The notes below the pieces were generated by a model. It ran no database searches. It was not told where the DNA came from and saw only the letters and a list, made by a program, of their open reading frames with translations. The translations under genes and the position numbers were made by a program. This document shows, piece after piece, positions 17,312 to 63,827 of a stretch of DNA of 64,000 nt. Each line of letters begins with the position of its first letter. Position 1 is the stretch's first letter. Source of the stretch: Candidatus Beckwithbacteria bacterium (GTDB lineage Bacteria > Patescibacteriota > Microgenomatia > UBA1400 > CG1-02-47-37); assembly GCA_026397255.1 (NCBI GenBank), contig JAPLVF010000013.1, positions 9,481 through 73,480 of the forward strand, in the 5' to 3' direction.

Positions 17312-17314
17312 GCT

Positions 17315-41361: not shown

Positions 41362-41362
41362 A

Positions 41363-46173: not shown

Positions 46174-47297
46174 AATAAACCGGCCATGGGCAGGTAGCGC
46201 AAAAATAAGTAACTAAAGAATTTTAACGGCAAAGGAGAAATAATCATTAATCCCTCATTTGGTTTAATCCAAGGGGTCGTATCCACAATCAATAAAATCA
46301 AACTAAGCATCATAAAAGCTAACTGTTGTTTGATTGATTTAAACGGAAATAAAACTATTAAAGGAATCAGCCATAAATGGAACGGTTGGGAAAAAATTTT
46401 GGCGGTAAAGAAAATCGTCAGGAAAAAAATTAAGCTGATTTTGATGCTGCCGGCATAAGTATTAAGTTTATTTTTTCTGGCATAAAGTAAGACTAATAAG
46501 ATAGAGAGAGGAAAGATTACCGAGACTGCTTTTTCCGCCGCTTGGGAAACCGGTCCCTGTAACTCAAAATCCGGCGGCTGGTCGCGCCGGACTTCACTAT
46601 GAGTGAAATAATTAACCGTCTCGACGACAAAACCGGGAAAAGAAGCATACTTAATCCCCCGTTCATTGTTGTAAACAAACATCACCCCCAAAGAAGAACG
46701 AAAAATTAAAAGCGGTAAACCCCAAACTAAAATAAACCCCAATATTATCATTTTCCAGTCTTTTTTTAAGAAAATCAGTGCCAGCGGCGCGGTTAGTAAT
46801 TTAAGTGCGGTTGACAACCAAAATAAAATCCAAAAGAGTAACCGTTTAGTCATAAAAATTATTGCCAAAGCTAAACTAGCCGTAAATACCCAGTCAATCC
46901 CTTCGTAAAAAAAGTCTTTGGCAATCATCGGCGCAATCAGATAAAAACCTATACTTAAGTATTTTGACAAAGGTTTTGTTTTAAGTTTCTGAATCGTTTT
47001 AAGAATAAAGAAAAATAAAACCGTATCGAAAAGAAAAATCTGCCAACGGTAATTTTGATAATAATGACCGATGTTTAAACGGTTTAAAATCTGAGGCACA
47101 TAAAGTAAAGGAATTGTCGCCGGCGGATATTCATAAAGATGCTTGAAGTAAGGAATAATGCCGCTTTGCCACATTTCCGCATAGCGGCGGTAGTCATGAA
47201 AAACATCGGAGTAAAATGGCGGCGGAAATTTTAAAATATAAAGCCGGCTTAAAAAGAAAAGGATAAATGCCAAGATTAATAAACGATTTTGTTTCAT
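46143..47297 (-). CDS. polytopic membrane protein, DUF2029/GT87-like candidate
   Basis: SDVFHDYRRYAEMWQSGIIPYFKHLYEYPPATIPLLYVP loop with a YPP motif. Weak assignment. Confidence 0.4.
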   Translation of the reverse strand: MKQNRLLILAFILFFLSRLYILKFPPPFYSDVFHDYRRYAEMWQSGIIPYFKHLYEYPPATIPLLYVPQILNRLNIGHYYQNYRWQIFLFDTVLFFFILKTIQKLKTKPLSKYLSIGFYLIAPMIAKDFFYEGIDWVFTASLALAIIFMTKRLLFWILFWLSTALKLLTAPLALIFLKKDWKMIILGFILVWGLPLLIFRSSLGVMFVYNNERGIKYASFPGFVVETVNYFTHSEVRRDQPPDFELQGPVSQAAEKAVSVIFPLSILLVLLYARKNKLNTYAGSIKISLIFFLTIFFTAKIFSQPFHLWLIPLIVLFPFKSIKQQLAFMMLSLILLIVDTTPWIKPNEGLMIISPLPLKFFSYLFLRYLPMAGLLWLSTKLSNK

Positions 47298-48850
47298 AAT
47301 GGCGTTTTAACAATCCGGAAGGCCGGTTGACCATCAGGGAAATTAATTACTTTAATTATACCAACGGCATCAGCGGGAATTTCCTCAGGAGAACCGATAA
47401 TTAAAACGTTGCTTTTCTGGCTATCCTCTGGCCAATTAATGTTGCGAAAAAGATATTTGCTCATCGCTCCCCAGAAAACACTGGCGGCCTTTCTGTCTTG
47501 ATAGAAATAGGTAAAAATATACGGTTGTCCATAAGTGCTGGTAATAATAATTTTATTAACCTGATTTTCTTGCTGGCGGGCAAAATCTGCTGCTAACTGA
47601 TAGCCATATTGCCAAACCGGAGCAGAATAAACCGGATAAACGACAAAATAGTGATAAAGAAAATAAGCTAGATTAACGATAAATAAAATAACCACTAAGG
47701 TTCTTAATTGGGATTTTAACAAACGTAAAAAATAAACTAAACCAATAGCGGTAATGATAATTAATGCCGGTAAAACATTGTCAGAACGAAGCGGGTGAGG
47801 TACATCCCGACCAATCATGGCCGGAATCGGGCCGACAATTAACCACCAAAAAAGTAATTTTGACCAAGTTGCGGATCTTTTTTTCAGCAAATAAATTAAT
47901 CCCATCAGTAAAAACGGCGCTTCAATTAATAACAGCGGGCCGACTGTTTTAAGTTGTAACTGAGGCATAAGGCTGCTGCCGGAAAAAAGATAGGCGGGAG
48001 AGTAATGAATAATATAGTTTTTAAAGGCTTGGTTAATTAAGGAAAATTTCAACGGTAACGGTTGATCTTTTTCGTAAAAAATCGAAGTACTCTCAAACCG
48101 ATTGGCCCCTTTTTGGAAAACTATTTCCTTAATTAAGGGGATAAGTAACAATAATCCCAGGGTGACTGAACCAATCAGCCAATAACTATTTTTTTTGACA
48201 AAAATCTGCCGCCGGAAAATAAAAATTATTCCCAATAAAAATACCGGCACAAAAATTTTGGGACTGTGATAAGTATAGAAAGACAATACAAAACTTAAAA
48301 CAGAAAACAGGTAATATTTAGGTTTGGTTAAAGACTTTAAAAACAGATAAGTTCCCGATAAAACAAACATTAAGGCTAAATTAGCTTCAAAGGCCGGCCG
48401 GGATAAAATTACCTGCCAGGGAGTAATCGCCATCAGTAAAGCTGCTAATGGTGCGGTGTACGGTGTACGGAGTCCGGAGTTTAACAATAATGCATTAGTA
48501 ATCAAGTAAATCAAATAAACACTGGCAATGCCGGCGAGAACGGAAACCAGGCGGACAGAAATAGGGTTAGCTCCCAATAAACCAACAAAGGGGGCGGTTA
48601 AATAAATATAGACCGGCGCTTTATAATCACCGAAAGATTTAAAACTCCAGGGTAAATGAGTACCATATTCGTCCAGCCGCGTCTCCCAAATAGTTTTAGC
48701 ATTCCAGCCAATCGCCGCTTCATCCCAGTTTAAAGAGGCTGGATCAGAGCCTAAATGATAAAACCGCAGAACCCCGGCTAATAAAATTATCAGCAGCAAT
48801 AAAAAATTACGCTTGAATAAAAATCTCATATTAAAATTGGTATTTTTCAA
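47294..48850 (-). CDS. PMT/ArnT-like GT-C glycosyltransferase
   Basis: NWDEAAIGWNAKTIWETRLDEYGTHLPWSFKSFGDYKAPVYIY. Confidence 0.65.
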   Translation of the reverse strand: MKNTNFNMRFLFKRNFLLLLIILLAGVLRFYHLGSDPASLNWDEAAIGWNAKTIWETRLDEYGTHLPWSFKSFGDYKAPVYIYLTAPFVGLLGANPISVRLVSVLAGIASVYLIYLITNALLLNSGLRTPYTAPLAALLMAITPWQVILSRPAFEANLALMFVLSGTYLFLKSLTKPKYYLFSVLSFVLSFYTYHSPKIFVPVFLLGIIFIFRRQIFVKKNSYWLIGSVTLGLLLLIPLIKEIVFQKGANRFESTSIFYEKDQPLPLKFSLINQAFKNYIIHYSPAYLFSGSSLMPQLQLKTVGPLLLIEAPFLLMGLIYLLKKRSATWSKLLFWWLIVGPIPAMIGRDVPHPLRSDNVLPALIIITAIGLVYFLRLLKSQLRTLVVILFIVNLAYFLYHYFVVYPVYSAPVWQYGYQLAADFARQQENQVNKIIITSTYGQPYIFTYFYQDRKAASVFWGAMSKYLFRNINWPEDSQKSNVLIIGSPEEIPADAVGIIKVINFPDGQPAFRIVKTPL

Positions 48851-50333
48851 CTATGATTATGCCGAAATTAGTTTTATCAATTAATTTTTTCCCTTCAGTA
48901 AGAGGGCGATACCAATCTAAAAACCAAGGCTTGAGTTCAGCTTGATTATTTTTCATCCAGGTATCCGGCTCATAAATCACAAAATATTCCTGGGTAAATT
49001 CAGTGAAGCGCAAGTTTTTAATACCTTGTTTTTGCGCTTCCCTTTTTAATAAATATTCATAAGTGGCCGGGCGGCCATCCGGAGGCCTTGCCCAGATTGC
49101 CTGACCGTTATAATTTTTCAAAACATAGTTAACCGTTTTATTAAGCTGCATTAATGAATATCCGAGACTGTTTGGAAACAAAAATGTATCCGCCTGAGAA
49201 ACATTGGAAAAAATTATTATTGATAAAACAGCAACTTTTAAAACACGGCCGTGTTTAATAAACTTTGTTAAAGAAACCAATGAATAACTGGCAAGAAGAA
49301 GCAAGGGTAAGAATTGAGAAACTATATAATAGTCGAAAAAGAAGCCAAAATTTCCGGTATAAAAAAGATAGCAAACGATCGGGAATAATAACCATAATAA
49401 CAATAAAATTATTCCTTTTCTATCTTTGACTGAAACTTTTTTAAAGAAGTAAACAGGCAGAAAAATTATACCTAATAATAAGGCTGAGCTGACAAGAGGA
49501 AAAAACATTTTGTTTAAAATACTCGGAGTTAAAGAGTTAATAAACCATTGATTAAAAAAACCCGGCCGGGAGTGCCAAACAACTGCAAGGCTGGTTTTAT
49601 TAACGTCACTGATAAAGTTTCCCAGCAAAGACTTTGAGAGAAGATGCTCATGACGAAAATTGAAAAGTAGCTGCGGGAAAAAGGTGCTTAAAAATAACCC
49701 CAGACCTAAGAATAAATTAATCAATCCGATTTTCTTCCAAGACGGCAGCAAATAAAGAAAAATCGCTAAGGTTAAAAAGAAAGCATTGGCTAACTGCGTT
49801 TGAAGACTGAGACCCATAACTAAACCTAAAAGCGGAAAGTATTTCTTGTTGTCTTGTTTGATTTTGTAGGCTAACCAAAACATTAATAAAGAAATAAACA
49901 TCAGCGGGGAGGGATTTGACAACATTCTGGAAAAGTAAATGCCCTGACTGGAAAAACATAATAAAGCGGCAGCGAGTAAACCAACTTTTTTACCAAATAG
50001 GTCTTTCCCCAGTAAATAAATTAAATAAATACTTAATGTTCCCAATAAAACCATTTCTGTTGCCGGCCAAACAGGATTCCCCTGTCCTAAAAAATAAAAA
50101 GGTAAAATTAAATAATAAAAAAACGGCCCGAGAAAGACTCCTTCAATACCGGTAGTCGGGCCAATTAGTACGGGTTTATGATTTTTAATTATTGACTCAA
50201 CTACCAGAGCATCACGACCTTGATCGTAACCAAAATGAAGATTTAGATGTAAATTCCAAATCCGCAAAAGAAAACCAATACTTAACAAAAATATTAAAAT
50301 TGAATTTTTCTTTACGAAAATCTTAAAAGGCAT
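48831..50333 (-). CDS. polytopic membrane protein, paralog of the 36228-37643 gene
   Basis: GYDQGRDALVVESIIKNHKPVLIGPTTGIEGVFLGPFFYY parallels YDHGRDALAVLDL...GPWTSIQGVFFGPGWYY. Confidence 0.5.
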   Translation of the reverse strand: MPFKIFVKKNSILIFLLSIGFLLRIWNLHLNLHFGYDQGRDALVVESIIKNHKPVLIGPTTGIEGVFLGPFFYYLILPFYFLGQGNPVWPATEMVLLGTLSIYLIYLLGKDLFGKKVGLLAAALLCFSSQGIYFSRMLSNPSPLMFISLLMFWLAYKIKQDNKKYFPLLGLVMGLSLQTQLANAFFLTLAIFLYLLPSWKKIGLINLFLGLGLFLSTFFPQLLFNFRHEHLLSKSLLGNFISDVNKTSLAVVWHSRPGFFNQWFINSLTPSILNKMFFPLVSSALLLGIIFLPVYFFKKVSVKDRKGIILLLLWLLFPIVCYLFYTGNFGFFFDYYIVSQFLPLLLLASYSLVSLTKFIKHGRVLKVAVLSIIIFSNVSQADTFLFPNSLGYSLMQLNKTVNYVLKNYNGQAIWARPPDGRPATYEYLLKREAQKQGIKNLRFTEFTQEYFVIYEPDTWMKNNQAELKPWFLDWYRPLTEGKKLIDKTNFGIIIVEKYQF

Positions 50334-50337
50334 AATA

Positions 50338-51081
50338 CTAATTATATCTTCCTAAAGAAGATACCAATTTAAAACAAATAAAAACAGGCTCAAAAAAATC
50401 TGTCCAGGAAAGTTTAGACACACCTGCCCGGCGGTCTTTAAAAACAATCGGAATTTCTTTAACTTTATAACCATTTTTTAAAACCCGAAAGACCGCTTCC
50501 ATAGAAATAGCCAGGCCTTTTCGGGAAAAAAGGCTAGCTGGGTTAATTGATTCCAGGGCTTTTCTCTTATATGCCTTAAAACCTGAACCCATGTCTGTTA
50601 AATGAATTCCCAAAATGAAGCGGAAAATAATTCCGGAAAGCCGACTAATTAAGGTGCGGAAAGGAGAACGATTGACCTCACTTCCACCTGGTAAAAACCG
50701 AGAACCCAAAACTACATCGATTTCTGGTTTTGATAGCTGCCGAAGCATTAGAGGAATATATTGCGGATCATGAGAAAAATCCGCATCCATTTCTATAATG
50801 GCATCTGCCTTTTGTTTTAAACAATACCTGAAGGCATCTTTGCCGGCCAAAGCCCGGCCACGCGGCGGTTGGCGGTGTAAAACACTAATTTCCTTGGGAA
50901 ATTTGACGGTTAATTTATCGGCAATTTCTCCGGTTCTGTCAGTGGAATTATCATCGATAATCGCAATATGTAAATTGGGAATTTTAAGCTGAAGAATAGT
51001 GGCAACTAAATCGGCAAGATTCCCTTCTTCATTATGGCAGGGTAAAAACAACCAAATGTTTTTAAAAAGAAATTTTGCCAT
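50338..51081 (-). CDS. GT2 polyprenol-phosphate sugar synthase (DPM1-like)
   Basis: WLFLPCHNEEGNL...IDDNSTDRT...EMDADFSHDP. Confidence 0.8.
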   Translation of the reverse strand: MAKFLFKNIWLFLPCHNEEGNLADLVATILQLKIPNLHIAIIDDNSTDRTGEIADKLTVKFPKEISVLHRQPPRGRALAGKDAFRYCLKQKADAIIEMDADFSHDPQYIPLMLRQLSKPEIDVVLGSRFLPGGSEVNRSPFRTLISRLSGIIFRFILGIHLTDMGSGFKAYKRKALESINPASLFSRKGLAISMEAVFRVLKNGYKVKEIPIVFKDRRAGVSKLSWTDFFEPVFICFKLVSSLGRYN

Positions 51082-51781
51082 TTTGATAGTCCTTGGTAAC
51101 TTGCGTTAATCTTTCCGGCGTACCCATATCCTTAGAATAACAGTCGGAATAATAGGCGTAAAGTCTTTGACCGCGGGCTAACAAACCGGGAATTAACTGC
51201 TCTTCTAAAGAAAATTCAGTTTTTCCGGGAATAAAGTCCAAAACTTGCGGTGTAAAGATATGAGTGCCGGTTTTAGCCAGCGGCTTAAATTTATCTCCCT
51301 GGTGGGGCCGGAAAAAACGTTTAATCAAAAAATTGTGATCAGACTCAACCAAATCTGAGTCAAACGGATGATCGGTCGGGTGCACTAAAAAAGTTCCCAA
51401 ACCCGCCTTTAACTGATGAAATTTAGCCATAGCGGTTAAATCAACATTGGTCATGACGTCACCGTTAAGAACAAAAAAACTGTCGTTTTTCAATAATTTT
51501 TCCGCCAGTTTTAAGGCACCGGCGCCGCCCATGATTTGGTTAATTTCACGCGAGTAATTAATGTGAACACCAAACTTATTTCCATCTTGAAAATAATCAG
51601 TAATGACTTTTGGAAAATAATGAAGATTAATAATAATGTCTTTAAAGCCGTGAAAAGAACAAAGATTAATTAAGTGTTCGAGAATTGGTTTGTCTCCGAT
51701 TTTAACCATTACCTTGGGCTGATGGTTAGTTAAGGGTTTTAATCTGGTCCCCAAGCCGGCGGCTAAAATAAAAACTTTCAT
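51062..51781 (-). CDS. sugar-1-phosphate nucleotidyltransferase, HddC/GmhD-like
   Basis: MKVFILAAGLGTRLKPLT nucleotidyltransferase signature. Placed immediately after the heptose kinase/phosphatase and isomerase genes. Confidence 0.7.
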   Translation of the reverse strand: MKVFILAAGLGTRLKPLTNHQPKVMVKIGDKPILEHLINLCSFHGFKDIIINLHYFPKVITDYFQDGNKFGVHINYSREINQIMGGAGALKLAEKLLKNDSFFVLNGDVMTNVDLTAMAKFHQLKAGLGTFLVHPTDHPFDSDLVESDHNFLIKRFFRPHQGDKFKPLAKTGTHIFTPQVLDFIPGKTEFSLEEQLIPGLLARGQRLYAYYSDCYSKDMGTPERLTQVTKDYQNGKISF

Positions 51782-53394
51782 TTATGTTTGAGAATAAACT
51801 TCACCGCCGCCAATAAATCCTGACAAGTTTCATCGGGGTGGCCGGGATAAAGAGGATCCTTGCCGGCATGACCGGTTTTAACTAAAATTGTAAAAACATT
51901 TTCTTTTTTACCCATGAGAATATCCCGGCCATTATCGCCGACCACATAAGATTTGTTTAAATCTAAATTAAACATTTCTGAAGCTCTGACAATCATACCC
52001 GAATCCGGCTTTCTCCAGGAGCATTGGCTGATGTAGTCGGGATTAAAGGCCGTCGGATGATGAGGGCAGTAAAAGAGGGCATCAATATAAGCGCTTTTTT
52101 CCCCGAGTTTTTCCAGCATATAACGATGCAGTTTCTGGACTTGGTCCTCATCACATAATCCCCGGGCAACAACAGAGGCGTTATGGTAAACAATCACCGG
52201 AATATCAGCCATGTTTAATAACTTAATTGCCTGGATTGAACCGGGAATAAACTCAAAATCTTTTAATTGGTAAAGTAAATGAGTTTCCTTATTAATCACT
52301 CCATCGCGATCCAAAAAAACAGCCCAATTTTTCTTGGGGGTAAATTTTTCTCTGATGAGAACCGGATGAAAATTATTTTCATGCTCAATTTTGGTGACCT
52401 GTAAACCTACTTCATCAAGATTAAAATTAATTATTTGAACCCCTTCGGCTTCCAGAGCGCTGATTAACTGCTTCTGTTTTTCCGGCGGGCAGAAAAAAAA
52501 CATATGACCTTCACCGCCGGCGCCCATCACCTTGCCGCCGAGCGCCCCCTGTTGGCGGGCCAAATCATAAAGAGAGTCTAACCGGTTATTGGTCGCCGCC
52601 GGGTTGGAACGTTTTTTATTCTGCCAAGACTTATTTAAAATCCCACCCAGTTTCAGCCATTTTTTCTGGAGCAAAAAACGGTGAAATTCCGCAGTGGCTG
52701 ATTTTAGGTCTAATAAGGCTTTAATTTTATTTTTTTCGGACATGCCTTTTTTCAGCTGTTTTTGCATTTCGCTGGAATGACGGGAACCGCCGGTAAAACA
52801 AAGCACTAACCAACGGTTTAGCTCGAGTTTGACTTGAGCGTTTAAGTTAATTCCCTTAACCGAAAAATTATTGTTTTTCCCGAAAGTCATCAGATTGACG
52901 CCCCCGAAAACAGCGGCAAGCTGATCTTGCTTGCCGGAAATCCATTTCAGCTCTTTTGTTTCCATTTCCCAGGCAAGAAGGGCAATTTCCTTTTTAGTTA
53001 AATTTAAAGCTAGCCATTGGTTAAAAGCACCGATAATGGCTACGGCAGCCGCTCCGGAGCTGCCTAAGCCGGCCGAATGGTTGCCCTCAAAACGGTCATA
53101 AAGATTAAAGCCGGTCGGGAGATGCTTTTTAAAATTATTTAAAATCGCATAAACTAAATCAAACTTTTTATCCTCGCCGTAACCGGGGAAAGGCTTATCA
53201 AGACTAAGTTGGCGGACTTCGCCTAAATTCTCAATAAAAATATTCCGGTCTTCCCGGGGAACTAAGGTTACCCGATGATACAAAGAAATCGCCAGGCTAA
53301 TCACTTCCCCGCCATATTGGGAAGCAAAGGGATCAACATCGGTCCCTCCCCCGATTAGACCAATCCGGGTAGGGGCCTGGGAGATAATTTTCAT
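51778..53394 (-). CDS. bifunctional D-glycero-D-manno-heptose 7-phosphate kinase (HddA-like GHMP) / D,D-heptose 1,7-bisphosphate phosphatase (GmhB)
   Basis: N-terminal half has the GHMP motif HSAGLGSSGAAAVAI. C-terminal half has VFLDRDGVIN plus CPHHP...C.WRKP zinc loop and VGD, the GmhB (HAD IIIA) signatures. Confidence 0.75.
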   Translation of the reverse strand: MKIISQAPTRIGLIGGGTDVDPFASQYGGEVISLAISLYHRVTLVPREDRNIFIENLGEVRQLSLDKPFPGYGEDKKFDLVYAILNNFKKHLPTGFNLYDRFEGNHSAGLGSSGAAAVAIIGAFNQWLALNLTKKEIALLAWEMETKELKWISGKQDQLAAVFGGVNLMTFGKNNNFSVKGINLNAQVKLELNRWLVLCFTGGSRHSSEMQKQLKKGMSEKNKIKALLDLKSATAEFHRFLLQKKWLKLGGILNKSWQNKKRSNPAATNNRLDSLYDLARQQGALGGKVMGAGGEGHMFFFCPPEKQKQLISALEAEGVQIINFNLDEVGLQVTKIEHENNFHPVLIREKFTPKKNWAVFLDRDGVINKETHLLYQLKDFEFIPGSIQAIKLLNMADIPVIVYHNASVVARGLCDEDQVQKLHRYMLEKLGEKSAYIDALFYCPHHPTAFNPDYISQCSWRKPDSGMIVRASEMFNLDLNKSYVVGDNGRDILMGKKENVFTILVKTGHAGKDPLYPGHPDETCQDLLAAVKFILKHK

Positions 53395-53996
53395 AAATTT
53401 ATTTTGGGAAAAATGGCCTGTTCAACTAAATCACAAATTATATGTAAAGCCAAAAGCTGGCCTTCTTGAATCCGCGGTGTATCCGAAGAAGGAATTTTGA
53501 CAGCGGCATCGAGCAATGGTAAGGCAATTTTGGTTTTATCACTGACTAAGCCAATTGTTTTTAGGCCGATTTTTCTGGCTGATTCCAGGGCCAAACCTAA
53601 GTTTCTCGAGTGAAAATTAGCCTCATTCAGGGAAACATCGCTGGTAGTAATAATGATTAAAACATCACCTTTTTTCCCTAAGGCTTCAACTTGTTTAGAA
53701 AAAACATAGCTAAAACCAAAGTCATTGCTGATTGAAGTTAAGTTGGAGGTATCGGTGGTCAAGGCGATTGCCGCTAAAGGACTTCTGTCCAAACGGAATT
53801 TATTAATCATTTCCGCGGCAATGTGCTGCGCCTGGGAAGCACTGCCGCCATTACCGCAAAGCAATACTTTCCCGGCTTGCTTAAATGTTTTGATAATCAT
53901 CTGCGCCGCTTGTAAAATGCCTGCTTGACAATTTTTAATCATGGCGGCGGAGACAACTGAAGCGGTTTGCAACTGATCAATTATTATTTTTGTCAT
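53391..53996 (-). CDS. gmhA: phosphoheptose isomerase (SIS domain)
   Basis: LLCGNGGSASQAQHIAAEM matches the GmhA signature GNGGSA.DAQHFAAE. Confidence 0.8.
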   Translation of the reverse strand: MTKIIIDQLQTASVVSAAMIKNCQAGILQAAQMIIKTFKQAGKVLLCGNGGSASQAQHIAAEMINKFRLDRSPLAAIALTTDTSNLTSISNDFGFSYVFSKQVEALGKKGDVLIIITTSDVSLNEANFHSRNLGLALESARKIGLKTIGLVSDKTKIALPLLDAAVKIPSSDTPRIQEGQLLALHIICDLVEQAIFPKINL

Positions 53997-53999
53997 AAT

Positions 54000-54875
54000 T
54001 TATATTTTACCAAAAGGTTGGACCTTTTTGAATGATAACCACAAATAGATGGCTTGGAAAAAAGCAAGAATAAATAAGCCATGAGTTCTAATTGAGGTAA
54101 ATATAAAATGGTATGGCAGCCAGAGGAAATGCTCCAAAAGCCGGCGGCCGTGAATGTTTTTCCAAACAAATAAAATCTGGTTACGTAAAGCCATCAACTC
54201 CATTTTTCTTTTGCCAAAGACACTGACATTAGTCGTTTCGTGATGGTGATAAACTACGGCTTTCGGTTCAAATAAAATTTTCCAGTGGAATTTTTCTCTG
54301 GCTGTCCAGGATAAATCAATATCTTCCCAATAGGCCGGTTTGTATAAAGGATCCATACCACCAATCTGTAAATATTTTTTGCGGTCAAAGGCGCTCGAGC
54401 CACCGGTGGCCCAGCAGTTAGTTACCTTCCTTTTCAAATTCCCGATGGGGACGGCTGAATGGACCAAAAATCCGCGCTGAAATCGGCATTGGTTCCGGCC
54501 GGAAAATGCCTCTTTATTCTCATGACTTTGAATTTCCAAACAGGAAACGGCAAAAACACTATCGTCACGGAAATGAGCCAGCAACGGCGCCAGAAAATTT
54601 GGTTTCGGAGCGACATCAGAGTTTAGCAATACCACAACGTCACCATGAGCGGCTTTAACGCCATTATTACAGGAAACGGCAAAACGCTGATTGATTTTAT
54701 TAACCACCACTTTTACCTGAGGAAAATTTTGTTTTAGAAAATCTCTCGTGTCGTCCGGAGAAGCGTCGTCAACGACAATAATTTCTGCACCCGGGCAAGC
54801 CTTAATCACTAGCGGTAAGTATTTGATTAAGGGTAGTTTTTTCCAGTTGGGAATAACGACGGAAACTGTTTTCAT
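54000..54875 (-). CDS. glycosyltransferase family 2
   Basis: VSVVIPNWKK...IIVVDDASPDDT, a GT2 N-terminal fold. Confidence 0.75.
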   Translation of the reverse strand: MKTVSVVIPNWKKLPLIKYLPLVIKACPGAEIIVVDDASPDDTRDFLKQNFPQVKVVVNKINQRFAVSCNNGVKAAHGDVVVLLNSDVAPKPNFLAPLLAHFRDDSVFAVSCLEIQSHENKEAFSGRNQCRFQRGFLVHSAVPIGNLKRKVTNCWATGGSSAFDRKKYLQIGGMDPLYKPAYWEDIDLSWTAREKFHWKILFEPKAVVYHHHETTNVSVFGKRKMELMALRNQILFVWKNIHGRRLLEHFLWLPYHFIFTSIRTHGLFILAFFQAIYLWLSFKKVQPFGKI

Positions 54876-55969
54876 AAGTTAAAAATTTTCCTGGTGGTTT
54901 GGCAAAACTTGATTAAAGAAAAATCTTTGGCCCGTTTTTGGGCTTGAGTCGATAATTTCTGCCATAGTTTTTGATCGTCAATCAATTCCCCGGTTTGCTG
55001 AATCAACTGCGGTTGTGTCTGCCAGAGAAGGCCGTCGACCGCGTGGTTAACGATTTCCGTTTGCCCGCCTTTTTTAATTACCACCGGTACGGCAGCGGCG
55101 GCCATGGCTTCAATCGTCGAGATGCCGAAATGCTCCGCCGCCTGCGGATTGGTTTGTTCATCAATCCTATAGCCGGTCGCGTGCCAATAGATTTTTGCTT
55201 GGCCGTAAGCCTGAAGCAAGGAATCAAAACTGGTCTTTGACGGTAAATCAATCGGATAACCCTGAGCCAAACTTTTAACGCGGTTAAAATAATTAAGATT
55301 GTCCTTACCTTTATCAACCGGGCCGATTAGTTTCAGGCGCCAACCAACTAAACCCTGATCGCACATTTTCCGGAAAGTTTTAACCAAAAAATCCTGGCGT
55401 TTGCAGTGTTTGTTAAGCGATGGTGAAAACCAGCGGCCGACGCTAACGATCAGATTCTGTTTTGGCTGCGGTACAAAAATTTCGGTATCAACCGCCCCCC
55501 AGTGAACAAAATTAATTTTAATTTTCCAGATTCGCTCCAGTGCCTGTTTACAAAAAAATGAGTGGGTGGTTTTGACCTGCCAGGTGTTTAATTTTAACCG
55601 CTGTATTAAACCGGGCGGCCGGTTAAAGGGAATCATAAAGTGAGCGATGTTTCTTTTGGCTCCGGAGACAAAAAAACTAGCATCGGTCATGTAGTAAAAA
55701 ACATCATAACCACCGGTAAATTGCCACCGTCCCCAAGCGGAACTACCCGGACCGAACGGCCCGGGAATAACATTTAAACCATCAAGCTTTAAGTGAAAAT
55801 TGTCAGTAAATTTTTGTTTCAAGCCGGAAATCAGTTTGATTTTATTCCGGGGAATAATTAAATCCACCCGGTGCTTTGGCAATAAACATTCAGCCACGGT
55901 TAATAAATAGCGTTCGCCGCCGCCGATGTTATCTGCCAAAAATGGACTATATAAACCGATCCGGCTCAT
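54872..55969 (-). CDS. glycosyltransferase family 4
   Basis: EHFGISTIEAMAAAAVPVVIKKGG motif. Confidence 0.7.
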   Translation of the reverse strand: MSRIGLYSPFLADNIGGGERYLLTVAECLLPKHRVDLIIPRNKIKLISGLKQKFTDNFHLKLDGLNVIPGPFGPGSSAWGRWQFTGGYDVFYYMTDASFFVSGAKRNIAHFMIPFNRPPGLIQRLKLNTWQVKTTHSFFCKQALERIWKIKINFVHWGAVDTEIFVPQPKQNLIVSVGRWFSPSLNKHCKRQDFLVKTFRKMCDQGLVGWRLKLIGPVDKGKDNLNYFNRVKSLAQGYPIDLPSKTSFDSLLQAYGQAKIYWHATGYRIDEQTNPQAAEHFGISTIEAMAAAAVPVVIKKGGQTEIVNHAVDGLLWQTQPQLIQQTGELIDDQKLWQKLSTQAQKRAKDFSLIKFCQTTRKIFNL

Positions 55970-56751
55970 TTTGGTTTTCTGGCAACGCAGACCACACAGG
56001 CGCTGTATAGCCAGTTTAAATGGAATAAATTATAAAATCTTTTAAGCCTCTGGCCAAAAATGGTCAAACGGAAATCCGGATTGTTAATCTCTTGTCTTAA
56101 ACCAGGCCAATCAAGCCACAAGCCGATGCTTTTTTGGGGATTAAGGTCATCTTTAGGGAAAAACTTCGCTTCAACAAAACCGGCCTGCGTCATAAACTTT
56201 TTAAGTTCGTCTTTAGTGTAATGATATTCGTAAAATTCTCGGGCAAATTTTGCTGGCTTTCTTGGTTTTATAAAGCGTAACCAGCGGCGCGATCGTCTAA
56301 TCAGGTTATCAAACGGCACTTCGACAATTGCCAGGCCGCCAGGCTTTAGCACCCGAAAAGCTGCAACCAGGACTGCTTGCGGCCCGTCAATAAAATGTTC
56401 GACTACGCCCAAAGAAAGGTAAACAGCAAAACTATTTGGCTTAAACGGCAGCTGACGGACATCGCCCAACTTAATCCGGGCCGCCGGATAATAACCGGTA
56501 AGTTTTTTTAAAGCTAAAAGGTTGTTGTCGACACCGACAATATTATAGCCTCTTTTGCCAAAATAAATTATCCACTTGCCGGCGCAGCAGCCGGCCTCAA
56601 TGATGGCTGGTTTTTTAGTTAAATACTTTCTAAAAATCGGTAAGAGACCATCGCTTTGACACAATTCCATTTCCCGTTGGTAATTGGTTTTTTGCCAATA
56701 AGAATCCCATTGGGTGGCACTGGTTTTGGGAACAAAGACTTTATCGGCCAT
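55966..56751 (-). CDS. class I SAM-dependent methyltransferase
   Basis: IIEAGCCAGKW motif I and VLKPGG. Start set at the internal MADKVFV Met because the longest ORF (to 56889) overlaps the upstream GT2 by 149 bp. Confidence 0.65.
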   Translation of the reverse strand: MADKVFVPKTSATQWDSYWQKTNYQREMELCQSDGLLPIFRKYLTKKPAIIEAGCCAGKWIIYFGKRGYNIVGVDNNLLALKKLTGYYPAARIKLGDVRQLPFKPNSFAVYLSLGVVEHFIDGPQAVLVAAFRVLKPGGLAIVEVPFDNLIRRSRRWLRFIKPRKPAKFAREFYEYHYTKDELKKFMTQAGFVEAKFFPKDDLNPQKSIGLWLDWPGLRQEINNPDFRLTIFGQRLKRFYNLFHLNWLYSACVVCVARKPK

Positions 56752-57526
56752 CGAGTTTTTGATATTTTTTCGCCATGGACTCCGACTGCTGTTTTTCCCA
56801 AAGTTTGGCGTAAGTGATAAACGTATCAAAGGTTTGGTACAAAACGGTAATAAACCCCTCCATGCCTTCAAATAAGCCGCCTTTGGCAATTCCCCGCTGC
56901 CAAAACTGCCTCATTGGCGCAGTCAGTGAATGCCACCAGCGGCAGCGGAAAGTGTGTGCCTCCGCCATCAGCTCGGCCACATGATCGGTGTAGTCAATAG
57001 TTTTCCTAAGATTCCAGTTTATCCCCCGGTGGGTCAGGTGAATAAACGGTTGATTAAGACGGCCTGTTTCCCCAGTCAGCTGCGGATACTCGTGGATCCG
57101 GCCCACCCATTTTTTAAATTTGGTTTTATTAATCAGCCGGGTCTGCCAATCGGGATACCAACCGCCTTTTTTCAGCCACTTACCCAAAATAAAGTTTTTC
57201 CGCTTAACTTGAAAGCCCGCCTCCGGCGATGAGGCAGACAAATGATTGATTTCCTGTTTTAATTCCTCGGTCATCCGCTCGTCGGCGTCCAAATAAAACA
57301 TCCAGTCATTTAAAACCTTTTGCGCTCCTAAAGTCCGTTGCCGGCTAAAACCCAACCAGGGCTGGTTAAAAATCCGGCAGCCGAATTTTTTGGCAATCTC
57401 CAAAGTTTTATCAGTACTCCCGGCATCAACCACCACAATTTCTTTGGCCCAACCGCTGACTGATTCCAGACATTTAGCAATAAAGTCCTGATTATTCTGG
57501 GTTAAGATAATGACGCTGACTTTCAT
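56741..57526 (-). CDS. glycosyltransferase family 2
   Basis: MKVSVIILTQNN...VDAGSTDKT...YLDADE. Confidence 0.75.
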   Translation of the reverse strand: MKVSVIILTQNNQDFIAKCLESVSGWAKEIVVVDAGSTDKTLEIAKKFGCRIFNQPWLGFSRQRTLGAQKVLNDWMFYLDADERMTEELKQEINHLSASSPEAGFQVKRKNFILGKWLKKGGWYPDWQTRLINKTKFKKWVGRIHEYPQLTGETGRLNQPFIHLTHRGINWNLRKTIDYTDHVAELMAEAHTFRCRWWHSLTAPMRQFWQRGIAKGGLFEGMEGFITVLYQTFDTFITYAKLWEKQQSESMAKKYQKLDGR

Positions 57527-58431
57527 AGAACGCTACCTTTCCCTAAACGGTGTAAATAAAAATCAAGGACGCCTTTTTTTTCACCGGGCCGGCCGTTTAA
57601 TAATTGTTTAAGACTTTGCCTAAGAAGGGCAAATTTTGTCCTTAAGCTGGCGTACTTAAAGCCGAACACCAGTCGATTCCGGGTAATGTAATAGTCGTGT
57701 AACTGTGAACCGGAGCCGGAACTGCCGGAGCTTTTGTGCCAAATCCGGCTTTGAGGGACAAATACTTGCCTGAAACCGGCAAGTTGCGCCCGGTGGGAAA
57801 AATCGGCATCCTCCCAATAAAGAAAGTAGGCCGGGTCGAGCAAGCCGATCTTAACAAACACCTCTTTTTTGATTAAGACACAGCAAAAATTAACAAAGTC
57901 GACTATTTTAGCTTGGTTATACTGGCCGGTATCGACTTTATCAACACCCAAATGACGGCCGAAAACTTCGTTCCAGTCAAATCGGCCGCCGGCATACCAA
58001 ATTACTTTCCCCAGCTCATCCGGCTGATAACGGTCTTTATGATACTCATAACCTTTGGCAAAGTAGACTTTGGATACGGCTAAGTCTGCTCCGCCTTGGG
58101 CGGCTTTAAATAACTGAACCAGAAATTGCCGGTCAACAATAATATCGTTATTGATCAGTAAAAAGTATTTTGCCCCCCATTTTAGGCCGCGCTGGATACC
58201 AAGGTTATTGCCGTCGGCAAAGCCGGTGTTCTGTAAGGCAGTAATCAATTTAACGTCTTTATATTTTTTCAAGGCTTTTTTTAAGGAACCGTCGGGCACC
58301 GGACTGTTATCGACCACCACAATCAGTTGCTTAACGCTTTTGGGAAGAACCGCTTGCCTGAGCGAGTCGATCGTTTCCAAAGTCATCTGGGGATTCTGGT
58401 ATTCCAAAATCACCGTGCAAAGTTTAGTCAT
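57523..58431 (-). CDS. glycosyltransferase family 2
   Basis: LCTVILEYQNPQMT...VVVDNSP GT2-like N-terminus, and a DxD-type segment WEDADFSHRAQ. Confidence 0.7.
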   Translation of the reverse strand: MTKLCTVILEYQNPQMTLETIDSLRQAVLPKSVKQLIVVVDNSPVPDGSLKKALKKYKDVKLITALQNTGFADGNNLGIQRGLKWGAKYFLLINNDIIVDRQFLVQLFKAAQGGADLAVSKVYFAKGYEYHKDRYQPDELGKVIWYAGGRFDWNEVFGRHLGVDKVDTGQYNQAKIVDFVNFCCVLIKKEVFVKIGLLDPAYFLYWEDADFSHRAQLAGFRQVFVPQSRIWHKSSGSSGSGSQLHDYYITRNRLVFGFKYASLRTKFALLRQSLKQLLNGRPGEKKGVLDFYLHRLGKGSVL

Positions 58432-62726: not shown

Positions 62727-63827
62727 TTATTTTACCATTTTCCGCTTGATGAATGGGGTAAAAAAGATTGAGCCAAGCCAAATCAGGTTTCTGAGTAAAT
62801 ATACCGGCGGATCCCAGTGGCCGAAATAAAGATAAGGAGCGTAGCGCAGGAGCGCACCGATGGTCAAAGCCGTAAAAATACTGATTACCCATTTGGATTT
62901 AGCGAGAACTGCAAAAGAAAAAGCCCAAATCAAATACCAGGAATGAAGCTGACCCGGCCGCGTCAGCATCACCCCGAGCAAGATTACAGAAAAAAGTGTT
63001 GGTAAATCAATCCGTTTTGCCTTCAAGGAGAGAACCTGTAGGTAATAAAACGGCAGCAGTAAAATCGTGACGTATTTTATCGAAGCGGAAAAAATTAACA
63101 ATATAATTGATTTAAACTTGTTTGAGTTTAAGAAAAACCAGTAGCTTAACAAGGCCGAAAACATCATCACGACGTCATTATGTCCGACGATTAAAGTTTC
63201 GATTAAGACTAAGGGGCAGAAAGCAAATAAACTCCAACGCCATGGCTCATGAGGAAAAAGCCGATTGACTAATTTCTTTAAAATCCATAACTGCCCGAGC
63301 CAAAACAAAGCAACAAATAATTTCATTGTCCAAAAAGTCAAAGTAAAATTGTGGCTAAACCAAACTAGACCCGGCAAGAGGGAAATCCCCGTCCAGCCAT
63401 AGGCATAAGGCGCCGGCGTCTGAACGTTGTGCATGAAGCGAAGCAGCGGATCAAAGGCAAATTCAATCGCAGTTTTAATATGAGGGTTAACATGATAAAT
63501 AATCACCATTTTGGCATTAAAAAGATAATTGAAAACATCATAGGAAAAAAGCGGATAGGCTAAAACGCCAGAAAGAGTTAAAAATATTAAAACATTCCAC
63601 TCCGGAGTGGAATGTTTTTTACGAATATAATTAAGATAAATAATAATTAACAATAGGCTTAAAACTAAAAAAATTACCGTGTTTAAAGGCCGTTGATAAA
63701 ATCCTAAATGTTGTATCCAAATCCTAATCGGGTTCCACCAAGAAAAATTATAAAGCGTTAAATTTAAATCCTGCTGGCTGAAAGAAAACAAGCAAAGCAA
63801 TATCCAAACAAACAAAAATTTAATCAT
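62727..63827 (-). CDS. polytopic membrane protein
   Basis: 366 aa, about 10 TM helices. Start overlaps the stop of the partial GT2 upstream by 8 nt. Confidence 0.5.
   Translation of the reverse strand: MIKFLFVWILLCLFSFSQQDLNLTLYNFSWWNPIRIWIQHLGFYQRPLNTVIFLVLSLLLIIIYLNYIRKKHSTPEWNVLIFLTLSGVLAYPLFSYDVFNYLFNAKMVIIYHVNPHIKTAIEFAFDPLLRFMHNVQTPAPYAYGWTGISLLPGLVWFSHNFTLTFWTMKLFVALFWLGQLWILKKLVNRLFPHEPWRWSLFAFCPLVLIETLIVGHNDVVMMFSALLSYWFFLNSNKFKSIILLIFSASIKYVTILLLPFYYLQVLSLKAKRIDLPTLFSVILLGVMLTRPGQLHSWYLIWAFSFAVLAKSKWVISIFTALTIGALLRYAPYLYFGHWDPPVYLLRNLIWLGSIFFTPFIKRKMVK

What the first reader, a model, noticed from the sequence alone, without database searches (positions are those of the whole stretch)
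51062..53996. Complete GDP-D-glycero-alpha-D-manno-heptose pathway with an unusual HddA(GHMP kinase)-GmhB(phosphatase) fusion
GmhA (GNGGSA...HIAAE), then a 538 aa protein joining a GHMP kinase half (GLGSSGAAAVA) to a GmhB half (VFLDRDGVIN, CxHxxxxxxxC.C zinc loop), then an HddC-like nucleotidyltransferase. The GDP-heptose route is established for S-layer glycan and capsule heptoses. Kinase-phosphatase fusion is not the canonical organisation (E. coli fuses kinase with adenylyltransferase instead). It implies a heptose-containing glycan in a CPR-like organism.
Basis: partly seen in the sequence, partly recalled or inferred. Interest (0 to 1): 0.55.

Follow-up and report, generated by a model that had tools for sequence, protein, structure and literature searches.

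The report
Fused heptose kinase-phosphatase in a CPR bacterium
A tiny uncultivated bacterium (Candidatus Beckwithbacteria) carries all four enzymes needed to make an activated seven-carbon sugar, with the kinase and phosphatase steps joined into one protein by a simple fusion of neighbouring genes; the fusion is real and rare but mechanistically ordinary, and the sugar probably goes into the cell-surface glycans.

Summary
Three translationally coupled minus-strand genes encode GmhA (53996-53391), a 538-aa HddA-GmhB fusion (53394-51778) and a PF00483 nucleotidyltransferase (51781-51062).

- **Kinase half:** it groups with the heptokinases HddA and WcbL by HMM, sequence and fold, not with galactokinase. 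The catalytic Arg and Asp are kept.
- **Fusion:** it is not an artefact. It recurs in 12 protein clusters at 50-83% identity on independent contigs. It arose by stop-codon loss between adjacent hddA and gmhB, which the nearest relatives still keep separate. It is rare: two of 1.84 billion cluster representatives span both halves. Heptose enzymes are fused in nearly every other pairwise combination elsewhere, so it is a new variant of a known kind.

Two corrections:

- **Zinc loop:** it reads C-x-H...C-x-W, not CxC. HAD motif 2 Thr is replaced by His. Both changes are specific to this clade.
- **Transferase:** "GDP" and "HddC-like" are not established. The enzyme fails the HddC model and carries a MurU-like Asn52/Glu79 pair. 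Context nevertheless supports heptose-1-phosphate as its substrate.

The most interesting lead is a Dpm1/Ppm1-like polyprenyl-phosphate glycosyltransferase with PMT_2 (GT-C) enzymes. It abuts the operon in 12 of 12 related contigs, hinting at a lipid-linked heptose donor.

The parts
53391..53996 (-). gmhA: sedoheptulose-7-phosphate isomerase (201 aa)
   Evidence: PF13580 SIS_2, 71.6 bits. The best NCBIfam models are GmhA equivalogs at 168 and 163 bits, below their cut-offs, with DiaA lower at 117. It is 37% identical to E. coli GmhA over the full length, with the AE(M/L), RIQE and (L/I)HI positions aligned.
52387..53394 (-). HddA domain of the fusion (aa 1-336): GHMP-family D-glycero-D-manno-heptose-7-phosphate 1-kinase
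   Evidence: NF049969 HddA 229.6 bits over residues 3-333. PDB sequence hits: C. jejuni HddA 4n3o 186 bits, B. thetaiotaomicron 3k85 161, WcbL 148. Foldseek: WcbL TM-score on the target 0.88. R10 and D157 correspond to WcbL R13 and D163 and are invariant in the family.
52369..52386 (-). Fusion junction (aa 337-342, IEHENN), where the hddA stop codon and the gmhB start codon used to be
   Evidence: Collinear with unfused L004: '...GLEVKVIK*', then 6 nt, then 'MKKFYHLVDFRTDFKPERNW'. Apart from the zinc loop, this is the only stretch with pLDDT below 50 (residues 339-341).
51778..52368 (-). GmhB domain of the fusion (aa 343-538 plus stop): HAD-IIIA heptose-1,7-bisphosphate 7-phosphatase, a clade-specific variant
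   Evidence: TIGR01656 94.2 bits (cut-off 84.15) and TIGR01662 74.2 (cut-off 44.6). GmhB PRK08942 141.5 bits, below its cut-off of 178. E. coli GmhB 2gmw 100 bits. D362, D364, K462 and D487 are kept. H404 replaces E. coli Thr53, A406 replaces Gln55 and W460 replaces Cys109.
51062..51781 (-). Sugar-1-phosphate nucleotidyltransferase (239 aa; 'NT2' type), inferred heptose-1-phosphate nucleotidyltransferase
   Evidence: PF00483 119.6 bits. It is 43-54% identical to the gene in the same position after gmhB in relatives. It has the same HMM profile as transferases physically fused to GmhB or HddA. It is the only transferase of this family in the 64-kb window.
50338..51081 (-). GT2 polyprenyl-phosphate glycosyltransferase (Dpm1/Ppm1-like, 247 aa); its start overlaps the end of the transferase gene by 20 nt
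   Evidence: PF00535 93.6 bits. The best solved relative is P. furiosus Dol-P-Man synthase 5mlz (85 bits), then ArnC. Orthologs abut the heptose operon in 12 of 12 related contigs.
46143..50333 (-). Two PMT_2 (GT-C) membrane glycosyltransferases (48831-50333 and 47294-48850) and a 384-aa membrane protein (46143-47297)
   Evidence: PF13231, 51.1 and 38.7 bits. The same gene order follows the GT2 in L001-L004, L088 and L090-L093.
54000..59885 (-). Upstream genes of the same array: GT2 (54000-54875), GT4 (54872-55969), methyltransferase (55966-56889), GT2 (56741-57526), GT2 (57523-58431), Wzx-type flippase (58428-59885)
   Evidence: Pfam. The same order is kept in L001-L003, L088, L090 and L092.

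Best explanation
The three genes encode the alpha-anomer route to a nucleotide-activated D-glycero-D-manno-heptose.
1. GmhA isomerises sedoheptulose-7-phosphate to D-glycero-D-manno-heptose-7-phosphate.
2. The N-terminal GHMP-kinase domain of the 538-aa protein phosphorylates O-1, giving the alpha-1,7-bisphosphate.
3. The C-terminal HAD-IIIA domain of the same polypeptide removes the 7-phosphate.
4. The downstream PF00483 transferase couples heptose-1-phosphate to an NTP. GTP is likely by analogy, and UTP is not excluded.

The bifunctional protein arose when the stop codon between adjacent hddA and gmhB was lost. The two catalytic domains are joined by about six residues. The likely benefit is fixed 1:1 stoichiometry and local hand-over of the bisphosphate intermediate.

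The product feeds the surrounding envelope-glycan cluster, either directly through the cytoplasmic GT2 and GT4 enzymes or through the adjacent polyprenyl-phosphate GT2.

Shown: domain identities, retention of catalytic residues, the reality, rarity and origin of the fusion, and the conserved neighbourhood. Inferred: all enzyme activities, the anomer, the nucleotide, channelling and the acceptor.
For: - Domain and family assignments by HMM, by sequence against solved structures and by fold.
- WcbL catalytic R13 and D163 (PMC4691232) align to R10 and D157, which are invariant in the 12-member family.
- The GmhB nucleophile pair D362/D364, Lys462 and Asp487 are invariant.
- The fused ORF occurs on independent contigs L001, L002, L003 and L090.
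- The closest unfused relative, L004, has hddA and gmhB 6 nt apart in the same order, and its GmhB N-terminus is collinear with the fusion's inter-domain stretch.
- The gmhA-hddA-gmhB-transferase order is kept in all 12 related contigs.
- A related PF00483 transferase lies with hddA, gmhA and gmhB in many phyla.
- Transferases physically fused to GmhB or HddA have the same HMM profile as this one.
- In lineages that lack the second transferase paralog (window, L001-L004, L090) the heptose genes are still conserved, so this transferase must take their product.
Against: - None of the four proteins reaches the curated equivalog cut-off of its NCBIfam model: HddA 230 against 600, GmhB 141 against 178, HddC 83 against 300, GmhA 168 against 276.
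- The phosphatase domain lacks the HAD motif 2 Ser/Thr (it has His404) and one zinc ligand.
- The transferase is closer to ManC-, CugP- and MurU-type enzymes than to characterised HddC. It carries Asn52, the UTP-holding residue of MurU (PMC6981941).
- Relatives carry two transferase paralogs, so the assignment of roles is not unique.
- No biochemical data exist for any member.
Confidence: 0.78

Rival explanations
1. The transferase belongs functionally to the downstream polyprenyl-phosphate GT2. It would make GDP-mannose or UDP-glucose for a polyprenyl-phosphate-hexose donor. Heptose-1-phosphate would then be activated by another enzyme elsewhere in the genome, such as an NT1-type paralog.
For: - The best HMM is a mannose-1-phosphate guanylyltransferase model, and the best solved relative is a UTP-glucose-1-P uridylyltransferase.
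- The transferase gene overlaps the start of the GT2 gene.
- Relatives L086-L088 and L091-L093 carry a second paralog, NT1, upstream of gmhA that could be the true heptose enzyme.
Against: - NT1 is absent from the window and from L001-L004 and L090, yet gmhA, hddA and gmhB stay conserved there.
- The transferase is also translationally coupled to gmhB by an ATGA overlap.
- Transferases physically fused to GmhB or HddA show the same ranking of ManC-type above HddC.
- Only 64 kb of the genome was examined, so an NT1 gene elsewhere cannot be excluded.
Confidence: 0.15
2. The GmhB half is catalytically impaired or has a changed role, such as a binding or regulatory domain or a different phosphatase specificity, because it has lost the HAD motif 2 Thr/Ser and one zinc ligand.
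For: - His404 (Asn or Tyr in a few members) replaces E. coli Thr53, Ala replaces Gln55, and Trp replaces Cys109.
- This holds throughout the clade (12 fused and at least 24 stand-alone sequences), whereas the remaining GmhB domains compared almost all keep [TS]NQ at motif 2, mostly with the C-H-C-C ligands.
- The variability H/N/Y suggests that position is no longer catalytic.
- The GmhB equivalog cut-offs are not reached.
Against: - The Asp nucleophile and general acid (DxD), Arg-Lys-Pro and motif 4 Asp are invariant.
- The variant is kept as the only phosphatase in the operon in every relative with it.
- Sequence conservation of the half is high.
- One lineage (L088) has put a different HAD phosphatase in the same slot, and P0126 fuses that type to HddA. 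Both argue that a phosphatase activity is needed at this step.
Confidence: 0.1
3. The fusion is an assembly, frameshift or gene-calling artefact, and the organism really has two genes.
For: The source is a metagenome-assembled genome, and the closest unfused relatives have the genes only 6 nt apart or overlapping.
Against: - The same uninterrupted ORF occurs in 12 clusters at 50-83% identity from four independent data sources, including a 2016 Beckwithbacteria genome.
- The junction is in frame.
- The main fused clade is monophyletic in 100 of 100 bootstrap replicates.
Confidence: 0.02

Closest known systems
[quoted passage not shown]
   Same: The same four enzyme families in one operon. The GHMP kinase has the WcbL catalytic Arg and Asp. 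The phosphatase is HAD-IIIA and the transferase is PF00483. The same chemistry is expected up to heptose-1-phosphate.
   Different: The kinase and phosphatase form one polypeptide. The phosphatase lacks the motif 2 Thr and the fourth zinc ligand. The transferase is not an HddC equivalog and its nucleotide is undetermined. The host is a CPR bacterium, and the operon is joined to a polyprenyl-phosphate GT2 and GT-C enzymes.
HldE (RfaE) of E. coli: bifunctional heptose-7-phosphate kinase / heptose-1-phosphate adenylyltransferase of the ADP-heptose route
   Same: A fusion of two enzymes of a nucleotide-heptose pathway, with the kinase as one partner.
   Different: From general knowledge, both HldE domains belong to other families (PfkB/ribokinase-like kinase and cytidylyltransferase-like transferase). 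HldE makes the beta-anomer and fuses steps 2 and 4 rather than the consecutive steps 2 and 3. No PfkB or cytidylyltransferase domain was found here.
Other metagenomic fusions of alpha-route heptose enzymes
   Same: The same domain families joined in pairs: GmhA-HddA (P0124), transferase-HddA (P0141, P0147), GmhB-HddA (P0198), transferase-GmhB (P0111, P0120, P0229), HddA-HAD_2 phosphatase (P0126), GmhB-GT4 (P0251), and a distant independent HddA-GmhB from the Tara Oceans 0.1-0.22 um fraction (P0136).
   Different: The HddA-then-GmhB order is the rare one. Only two of the 1.84 billion cluster representatives span both halves. None was seen among the 24 two-gene loci checked out of 80 from GTDB species representatives.
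Multi-component transmembrane glycosylation systems: a polyprenyl-phosphate GT2, a flippase and a GT-C transferase. Examples are Ppm1 with Pmt or the mannosyltransferases of mycobacteria, ArnC/ArnT, GtrB/GtrC and CsbB/YfhO (PMC8035078, PMC11127046, PMC3485146)
   Same: A Dpm1/Ppm1-like GT2 is followed directly by several PMT_2, YfhO and DUF2079 GT-C-like membrane proteins.
   Different: Here the module is tied to a heptose operon. No polyprenyl-phosphate-heptose donor turned up in the paper search. The donor sugar is untested.

Membership tests
HddA (D-glycero-D-manno-heptose-7-phosphate kinase, NCBIfam NF049969) | Score at or above the curated equivalog cut-off (600 bits) | tested here: not met
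   229.6 bits over residues 3-333. HddA is by far the best model (next is fucokinase at 85), but the score is below the cut-off.
HddA (D-glycero-D-manno-heptose-7-phosphate kinase, NCBIfam NF049969) | GHMP kinase N- and C-terminal domains with the P-loop-like GLGSS motif | tested here: met
   PF00288 53.5 bits and PF08544 29.1 bits, both above the gathering scores. G109-L-G-S-S-G-A is present, with G109, G111, S112 and S113 invariant.
HddA (D-glycero-D-manno-heptose-7-phosphate kinase, NCBIfam NF049969) | Catalytic Arg and Asp of the heptokinase WcbL (R13, D163) | tested here: met
   R10 and D157 align to them in the phmmer alignment. Their roles are taken from PMC4691232. Both are invariant in the family.
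HddA (D-glycero-D-manno-heptose-7-phosphate kinase, NCBIfam NF049969) | Closer in sequence and fold to solved heptokinases than to galactokinase, mevalonate kinase or fucokinase | tested here: met
   PDB sequence scores: 4n3o 186, 3k85 161 and WcbL 148 bits, against fucokinase 54, mevalonate kinase 47 and galactokinase 30. Foldseek ranks 1-5 are WcbL and HddA, with TM-score on the target 0.82-0.90.
HddA (D-glycero-D-manno-heptose-7-phosphate kinase, NCBIfam NF049969) | Phosphorylates O-1 of D-glycero-D-manno-heptose-7-phosphate to give the alpha-anomer | not testable with these tools
   This needs an enzyme assay. Only co-location with gmhA and gmhB supports it.
GmhB (HAD-IIIA heptose-1,7-bisphosphate 7-phosphatase) | HAD-IIIA / histidinol-phosphatase-type domain (TIGR01662, TIGR01656) | tested here: met
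   TIGR01662 74.2 bits (cut-off 44.6) and TIGR01656 94.2 bits (cut-off 84.15).
GmhB (HAD-IIIA heptose-1,7-bisphosphate 7-phosphatase) | Score at or above the GmhB model cut-offs (PRK08942 178; TIGR00213 149.6; NF050049 250) | tested here: not met
   141.5, 109.6 and 98.1 bits respectively. GmhB is still the best-scoring function-specific model.
GmhB (HAD-IIIA heptose-1,7-bisphosphate 7-phosphatase) | HAD motif 1 DxD, motif 3 Lys and motif 4 Asp | tested here: met
   D362, D364, K462 and D487 align with E. coli D11, D13, K111 and D136 and are invariant.
GmhB (HAD-IIIA heptose-1,7-bisphosphate 7-phosphatase) | HAD motif 2 Ser/Thr (E. coli Thr53, in the TNQ signature) | tested here: not met
   His404-Asn-Ala. 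In one search, 90 of 108 GmhB domains compared have [TS]NQ. Only this clade has [H/N]NA there, and a Tyr variant appears.
GmhB (HAD-IIIA heptose-1,7-bisphosphate 7-phosphatase) | Zinc-binding loop with Cys-His-Cys-Cys ligands (E. coli C92, H94, C107, C109; ligand roles recalled from the GmhB structure literature) | tested here: not met
   C443, H445 and C458 are present, and the fourth position is W460. This is clade-wide. The loop has low model confidence (residues 449-454).
HddC (heptose-1-phosphate guanylyltransferase, NF049965) | Score at or above the equivalog cut-off (300 bits) | tested here: not met
   83.4 bits, below the ManC-type model (135) and MurU (124). Solved Y. pseudotuberculosis HddC scores only 66-68 bits. 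Transferases fused to GmhB or HddA also fail it.
HddC (heptose-1-phosphate guanylyltransferase, NF049965) | PF00483 fold with the GxGTR(x)nPK signature | tested here: met
   PF00483 119.6 bits. The sequence reads G9-L-G-T-R13...P22-K23.
HddC (heptose-1-phosphate guanylyltransferase, NF049965) | Guanine-reading Glu80 in the motif EXEPLGTGGA (PMC6981941) | tested here: inconclusive
   Glu79 is at the equivalent position, but the motif reads E-I-N-Q-I-M-G-G-A-G-A with a one-residue insertion. The position of HddC Ser53 is Asn52, as in UTP-using MurU. The paper shows that specificity is multifactorial.
HddC (heptose-1-phosphate guanylyltransferase, NF049965) | Gene lies in an operon with gmhA, hddA and gmhB | tested here: met
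   It lies directly after gmhB with an ATGA overlap. The orthologous position holds in 12 related contigs, and related transferases lie with heptose genes in many phyla.
GmhA (sedoheptulose-7-phosphate isomerase) | SIS domain, GmhA as best model, and alignment of active-site positions with E. coli GmhA (Glu65 and His180; roles recalled from the literature) | tested here: met
   SIS_2 71.6 bits. GmhA models score 168 and 163 bits and are the best hits, although below their cut-offs of 276 and 209. It is 37% identical to E. coli GmhA, with Glu and His aligned.
HldE-type bifunctional heptose enzyme | PfkB/ribokinase-like kinase domain fused to a cytidylyltransferase-like adenylyltransferase domain | tested here: not met
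   Pfam and NCBIfam find GHMP and HAD domains only. No PfkB or PF01467 match was found.
Polyprenyl-phosphate GT2 + GT-C extracytoplasmic glycosylation module | A Dpm1/Ppm1/ArnC-like GT2 next to GT-C membrane transferases | tested here: met
   The GT2's best solved relative is Dol-P-Man synthase 5mlz (85 bits), then ArnC. PMT_2 proteins follow directly. YfhO-like and DUF2079 proteins lie further on.
Polyprenyl-phosphate GT2 + GT-C extracytoplasmic glycosylation module | The donor sugar of the GT2 is the product of the adjacent pathway (here, heptose) | not testable with these tools
   Only adjacency is available: 12 of 12 contigs in this clade, lost at 51% and 43% identity.

The most novel reading that the evidence does not exclude
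In Beckwithbacteria and their relatives, the nucleotide-heptose may not be used only by cytoplasmic glycosyltransferases. The Dpm1/Ppm1-like GT2 that overlaps the transferase gene would convert it to polyprenyl-phosphate-heptose. The battery of PMT_2, YfhO and DUF2079 GT-C enzymes would then use that lipid to add heptose to proteins or wall polymers outside the membrane. This would be a lipid-linked heptose donor and a class of GT-C heptosyltransferases that turned up nowhere in the paper search. The chemistry is plausible because D-glycero-D-manno-heptose shares the manno configuration with the normal Dpm1 and Ppm1 substrate, and Y. pseudotuberculosis HddC was itself assayed with mannose-1-phosphate (PMC6981941).
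Probability: 0.25. Interest if true: 0.7.

Novelty: new variant of a known kind. Interest (0 to 1): 0.4.

Why it matters
- **Annotation.** NCBI names the protein only 'HAD-IIIA family hydrolase' and JGI names it only as the kinase. Automated metabolic reconstructions will therefore miss a step. One survey of freshwater CPR reported heptose synthesis only as the ADP route, in Paceibacteria (PMC9166423). This locus shows that a Microgenomates-group lineage encodes the alpha (HddA-type) route.
- **Enzymology.** The fusion joins two consecutive steps, so it is a natural single-polypeptide catalyst for making heptose-1-phosphate. The clade-wide replacement of the HAD motif 2 Thr by His is an unusual active site that could be tested directly.
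- **Biology.** The tight linkage to a polyprenyl-phosphate GT2 and many GT-C enzymes gives a concrete hypothesis about how these ultra-small, uncultivated bacteria decorate their envelope. It could be tested by heterologous expression.

Tried and rejected
- **Artefact.** Rejected, because independent assemblies carry the same ORF.
- **Galactokinase, mevalonate kinase or fucokinase identity for the kinase half.** Rejected on HMM, PDB sequence and fold ranking.
- **A single origin of the fusion.** Rejected. The kinase-domain neighbour-joining tree gives 0 of 100 bootstrap replicates for monophyly of all 12 fused proteins, and P0136 is far removed. This is a distance tree only.
- **Using HMM ranking to name the transferase's substrate.** Abandoned after the control showed that transferases fused to heptose enzymes rank the same way.
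- **Reading nucleotide specificity from Glu80 and Ser53 of HddC.** Inconclusive.
- **Scan of GTDB species-representative genomes for fused genes.** It returned 80 loci from many phyla. All 24 loci where both halves matched within about 2.3 kb had separate hddA and gmhB ORFs, or other fusions.
- **Literature searches** for an HddA-GmhB fusion, for heptose in Patescibacteria and for polyprenyl-phosphate-heptose found nothing specific.
- **Structure prediction.** It gave two confident domains, but pTM 0.67 and no contact map, so it says nothing reliable about inter-domain packing or channelling.

Full report
**What is there**

The window region 51062-53996 holds three minus-strand ORFs exactly as described: a 201-aa protein (53996-53391), a 538-aa protein (53394-51778) and a 239-aa protein (51781-51062). 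Successive genes overlap by 4 nt (ATGA), which is typical of translational coupling. The 538-aa protein is 100% identical to a protein of a Candidatus Beckwithbacteria MAG on a 358,919-bp contig. NCBI names it only 'HAD-IIIA family hydrolase'. The lineage is Patescibacteria group, Microgenomates group, so 'CPR-like' is correct.

**Identity of the parts**

- **ORF 1** is a SIS_2 protein whose best NCBIfam models are GmhA equivalogs (168 and 163 bits). It is 37% identical to E. coli GmhA over the full length, with the active-site Glu and His positions aligned.
- **The 538-aa protein, kinase half.**
  - Residues 3-333 match the HddA model at 229.6 bits. The next models are fucokinase (85), mevalonate kinase (74) and galactokinase (62).
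  - Against solved structures, the kinase half is closest to C. jejuni HddA (186 bits), B. thetaiotaomicron HddA (161) and the B. pseudomallei heptokinase WcbL (148).
- **The 538-aa protein, phosphatase half.**
  - Residues 357-536 match GmhB/HAD-IIIA models. TIGR01656 and TIGR01662 pass their cut-offs.
  - Its closest solved relative is E. coli GmhB (100 bits).
- **Structure model.**
  - An AlphaFold2 model has mean pLDDT 85.9 and two confident domains.
  - Foldseek ranks WcbL and HddA first (TM-score on the target 0.82-0.90), ahead of fucokinase, mevalonate kinases and galactokinases.
- **Catalytic residues.** The WcbL catalytic residues R13 and D163 (PMC4691232) correspond to R10 and D157, which are invariant in the family.

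**Is the fusion real, and how rare is it?**

- Eleven more clusters (at 90% identity) with the same architecture, 50-83% identical, come from ENA, JGI, Logan and NCBI assemblies.
- Contigs L001, L002, L003 and L090 carry it as one ORF in the same neighbourhood. L090 is a Beckwithbacteria genome, assembly GCA_001776045.1.
- An exhaustive HMMER search of 1.84 billion cluster representatives (at 50% identity) found only two that align across both halves. One is P0008, which stands for this family. The other is P0136, at 33% identity, from the Tara Oceans mesopelagic 0.1-0.22 um fraction.
- I checked the 24 loci, out of 80 from GTDB species representatives, where both halves matched within about 2.3 kb. 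None had a fused ORF, although hddA directly followed by a separate gmhB is common in Acidobacteriota, Chloroflexia and Lachnospiraceae.
- So the architecture is real and rare.

**How it arose**

The nearest unfused relative (L004; kinase 54% identical) has the order gmhA, hddA (337 aa), a 6-nt gap, gmhB (204 aa), transferase, GT2, PMT_2. Its GmhB begins MKKFYHLVDFRTDFKPERNWAVFLDRDG. This is collinear with the fusion's NNFHPVLIREKFTPKKNWAVFLDRDG.

The apparent linker is therefore the old N-terminal extension of GmhB. That extension is conserved in fused and unfused forms alike (H343 is invariant; F351, P353 and W357 are nearly so). The true junction is about six residues, and it is the only low-confidence stretch besides the zinc loop (residues 339-341).

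In a kinase-domain neighbour-joining tree:

- the main fused clade (P0001-P0010) is monophyletic in 100 of 100 bootstrap replicates;
- all twelve fused proteins together are monophyletic in 0 of 100;
- P0136 lies far away.

Fusion, or later fission, has therefore occurred more than once.

**Context among other fusions**

Long HddA or GmhB hits show nearly every pairwise fusion:

| Architecture | Example |
|---|---|
| GmhA-HddA | P0124 |
| Transferase-HddA | P0141, P0147 |
| GmhB-HddA | P0198 |
| Transferase-GmhB | P0111, P0120, P0229 |
| GmhB-GT4 | P0251 |
| CBS-HddA | P0186 |
| HddA fused to a different (HAD_2-type) phosphatase | P0126 |

The same HAD_2-type phosphatase replaces GmhB as a separate gene in L088. 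Kinase-phosphatase coupling has thus been selected convergently. This supports a functional benefit, but it also makes the present fusion one more variant rather than a new principle.

1. **The zinc loop is not CxC.**
   - The sequence is C443-P-H445-(12 residues)-C458-S-W460.
   - In an alignment of 108 GmhB domains, 81 have [TS]NQ at motif 2 together with C-H-C-C ligands.
   - Only this clade has His (rarely Asn, and Tyr) in place of E. coli Thr53, Ala in place of Gln55 and Trp in place of Cys109. The clade comprises the 12 fused proteins and at least 24 stand-alone GmhBs at 48-60% identity.
   - The Asp pair, Arg-Lys-Pro and motif 4 Asp are invariant, so activity is likely retained. Still, this is an unusual HAD active site.
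2. **The transferase is not demonstrably HddC, and GDP is not established.**
   - HddC scores 83 bits (cut-off 300), below a ManC-type model (135) and MurU (124).
   - The best solved relative is a UTP-glucose-1-P uridylyltransferase (125 bits), and Yersinia HddC scores only 66-68 bits.
   - A control shows that this ranking is uninformative. Transferases physically fused to GmhB or HddA score the same way: P0111 124 against 85, P0120 154 against 101, P0229 156 against 91, P0141 194 against 151.
   - In Y. pseudotuberculosis HddC, Glu80 reads guanine, and Ser53 corresponds to the UTP-holding Asn52 of MurU (PMC6981941).
   - The window's enzyme has both Glu79 and Asn52. The Glu is conserved across the heptose-operon transferases. 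The Asn is confined to a Patescibacteria subclade.
   - GTP is plausible and UTP is not excluded.

**Two transferase paralogs**

More distant relatives (L086-L088, L091-L093) carry a second paralog, NT1, upstream of gmhA. NT1 is about 30% identical to the window's enzyme and has the variant signature GGFGSKLRE (L086, L087) or GGFGIGLRE (L088), read directly in those three. The window's enzyme is the ortholog of the downstream paralog, NT2 (43-54% identity).

NT1 is absent from the 64-kb window and from L001-L004 and L090, yet the heptose genes are conserved there. This argues that NT2 activates heptose-1-phosphate. An NT1 gene elsewhere in the genome cannot be excluded.

**Neighbourhood**

The genes lie in a minus-strand array from 37.6 to 63.8 kb. 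In order of transcription it encodes:

- a 366-aa protein with no family match;
- PMT_2;
- a PTPS_related membrane protein;
- a Wzx-type flippase;
- GT2, GT2, a methyltransferase, GT4, GT2;
- gmhA, the fusion and the transferase;
- a 247-aa GT2 whose best solved relative is P. furiosus Dol-P-Man synthase, then ArnC;
- two PMT_2 proteins, a 384-aa membrane protein, PMT, a 556-aa protein, PMT, a YfhO-like protein and DUF2079.

Orthologs of the Dpm1-like GT2 abut one of the two transferases in every related contig examined: the window, L001-L004, L086-L088 and L090-L093, which is 12 of 12. The last four were picked only for contig length. In L086 and L087 the GT2 has moved to the other side of the operon, so the adjacency survives rearrangement. 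The link is lost in a Kaiserbacteria homolog at 51% identity and in a homolog at 43%. The GT2 family as a whole is therefore generic, and the association belongs to this subfamily.

**Mechanism proposed**

Sedoheptulose-7-phosphate is converted by GmhA to heptose-7-phosphate. The HddA domain, using ATP, makes the alpha-1,7-bisphosphate. The GmhB domain makes heptose-1-phosphate. [quoted passage not shown] The fusion enforces 1:1 stoichiometry and proximity for two consecutive steps. The product is used by the cluster's glycosyltransferases. All activities are inferred.

**The more novel possibility**

The adjacent GT2 may make polyprenyl-phosphate-heptose for the GT-C enzymes. Only the conserved adjacency and the shared manno configuration of the sugar support this. 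I give it about 25%.

**Verdict**

This is a rare but mechanistically ordinary fusion within a known pathway. It has two secondary points of interest: the remodelled GmhB active site and the link to the polyprenyl-phosphate GT2 and GT-C enzymes.

Noticed in passing
window 51778-52368 (GmhB domain; H404, A406, W460); also L004 9021-9635 and P0272-P0294: A whole clade of GmhB phosphatases, fused and stand-alone, has lost the canonical HAD motif 2 Thr/Ser (replaced by His, rarely Asn or Tyr). Gln55 has become Ala and the fourth zinc-ligand Cys has become Trp. The Asp nucleophile, the Lys and the motif 4 Asp are kept.
   Followed up: yes
L086 6691-7383, L087 796-1479, L088 6708-7391, L091 3540-4121, L092 3524-4120, L093 3375-4079: Relatives carry a second PF00483 transferase paralog (NT1) directly upstream of gmhA. 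In L086-L088, where the sequence was read, it has a variant signature (GGFGSKLRE or GGFGIGLRE instead of GxGTRLxP). It is absent from the window and from the main fused lineage. Its substrate is unknown.
   Followed up: partly
L088 9034-9765; protein P0126: In one lineage a HAD_2-type phosphatase (FDQDGT) occupies the slot after hddA in place of GmhB. P0126 (620 aa) is HddA fused to that other phosphatase type, which makes it a convergent kinase-phosphatase fusion.
   Followed up: partly
window 37644-50333 and 59866-62722: There is an unusually dense set of GT-C-like membrane proteins in one array: five PMT or PMT_2 proteins, one PTPS_related, one YfhO-like (796 aa) and one DUF2079. Three large membrane-array proteins have no family match (46143-47297, 42981-44651, 62727-63827).
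   Followed up: partly
window 50338-51081: The Dpm1/Ppm1-like GT2 is more conserved (66-78% identity across about 80 clusters) than the heptose enzymes beside it. In this clade it is always adjacent to the heptose operon. Annotation pipelines name it dolichol-phosphate or polyprenol-phosphate mannosyltransferase without evidence for the sugar.
   Followed up: yes
window 55966-56889: The methyltransferase ORF as listed (TTG start) overlaps the upstream GT2 (56741-57526) by 149 nt. The ATG at 56751 (Met47, MADKVF) is a more likely start, giving about 261 aa, closer to the 272- and 276-aa orthologs in L088 and L090.
   Followed up: no
window 17244-17315 (+): An Rfam DUF3800-IX RNA match (64.1 bits; gathering score 36.8) abuts the ORF at 17315-17938 on the opposite strand.
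   Followed up: no
window 1-64000: ARAGORN found no tRNA gene in the whole 64-kb window.
   Followed up: no
window 51778-53394: Public annotation is incomplete. [quoted passage not shown]
   Followed up: yes
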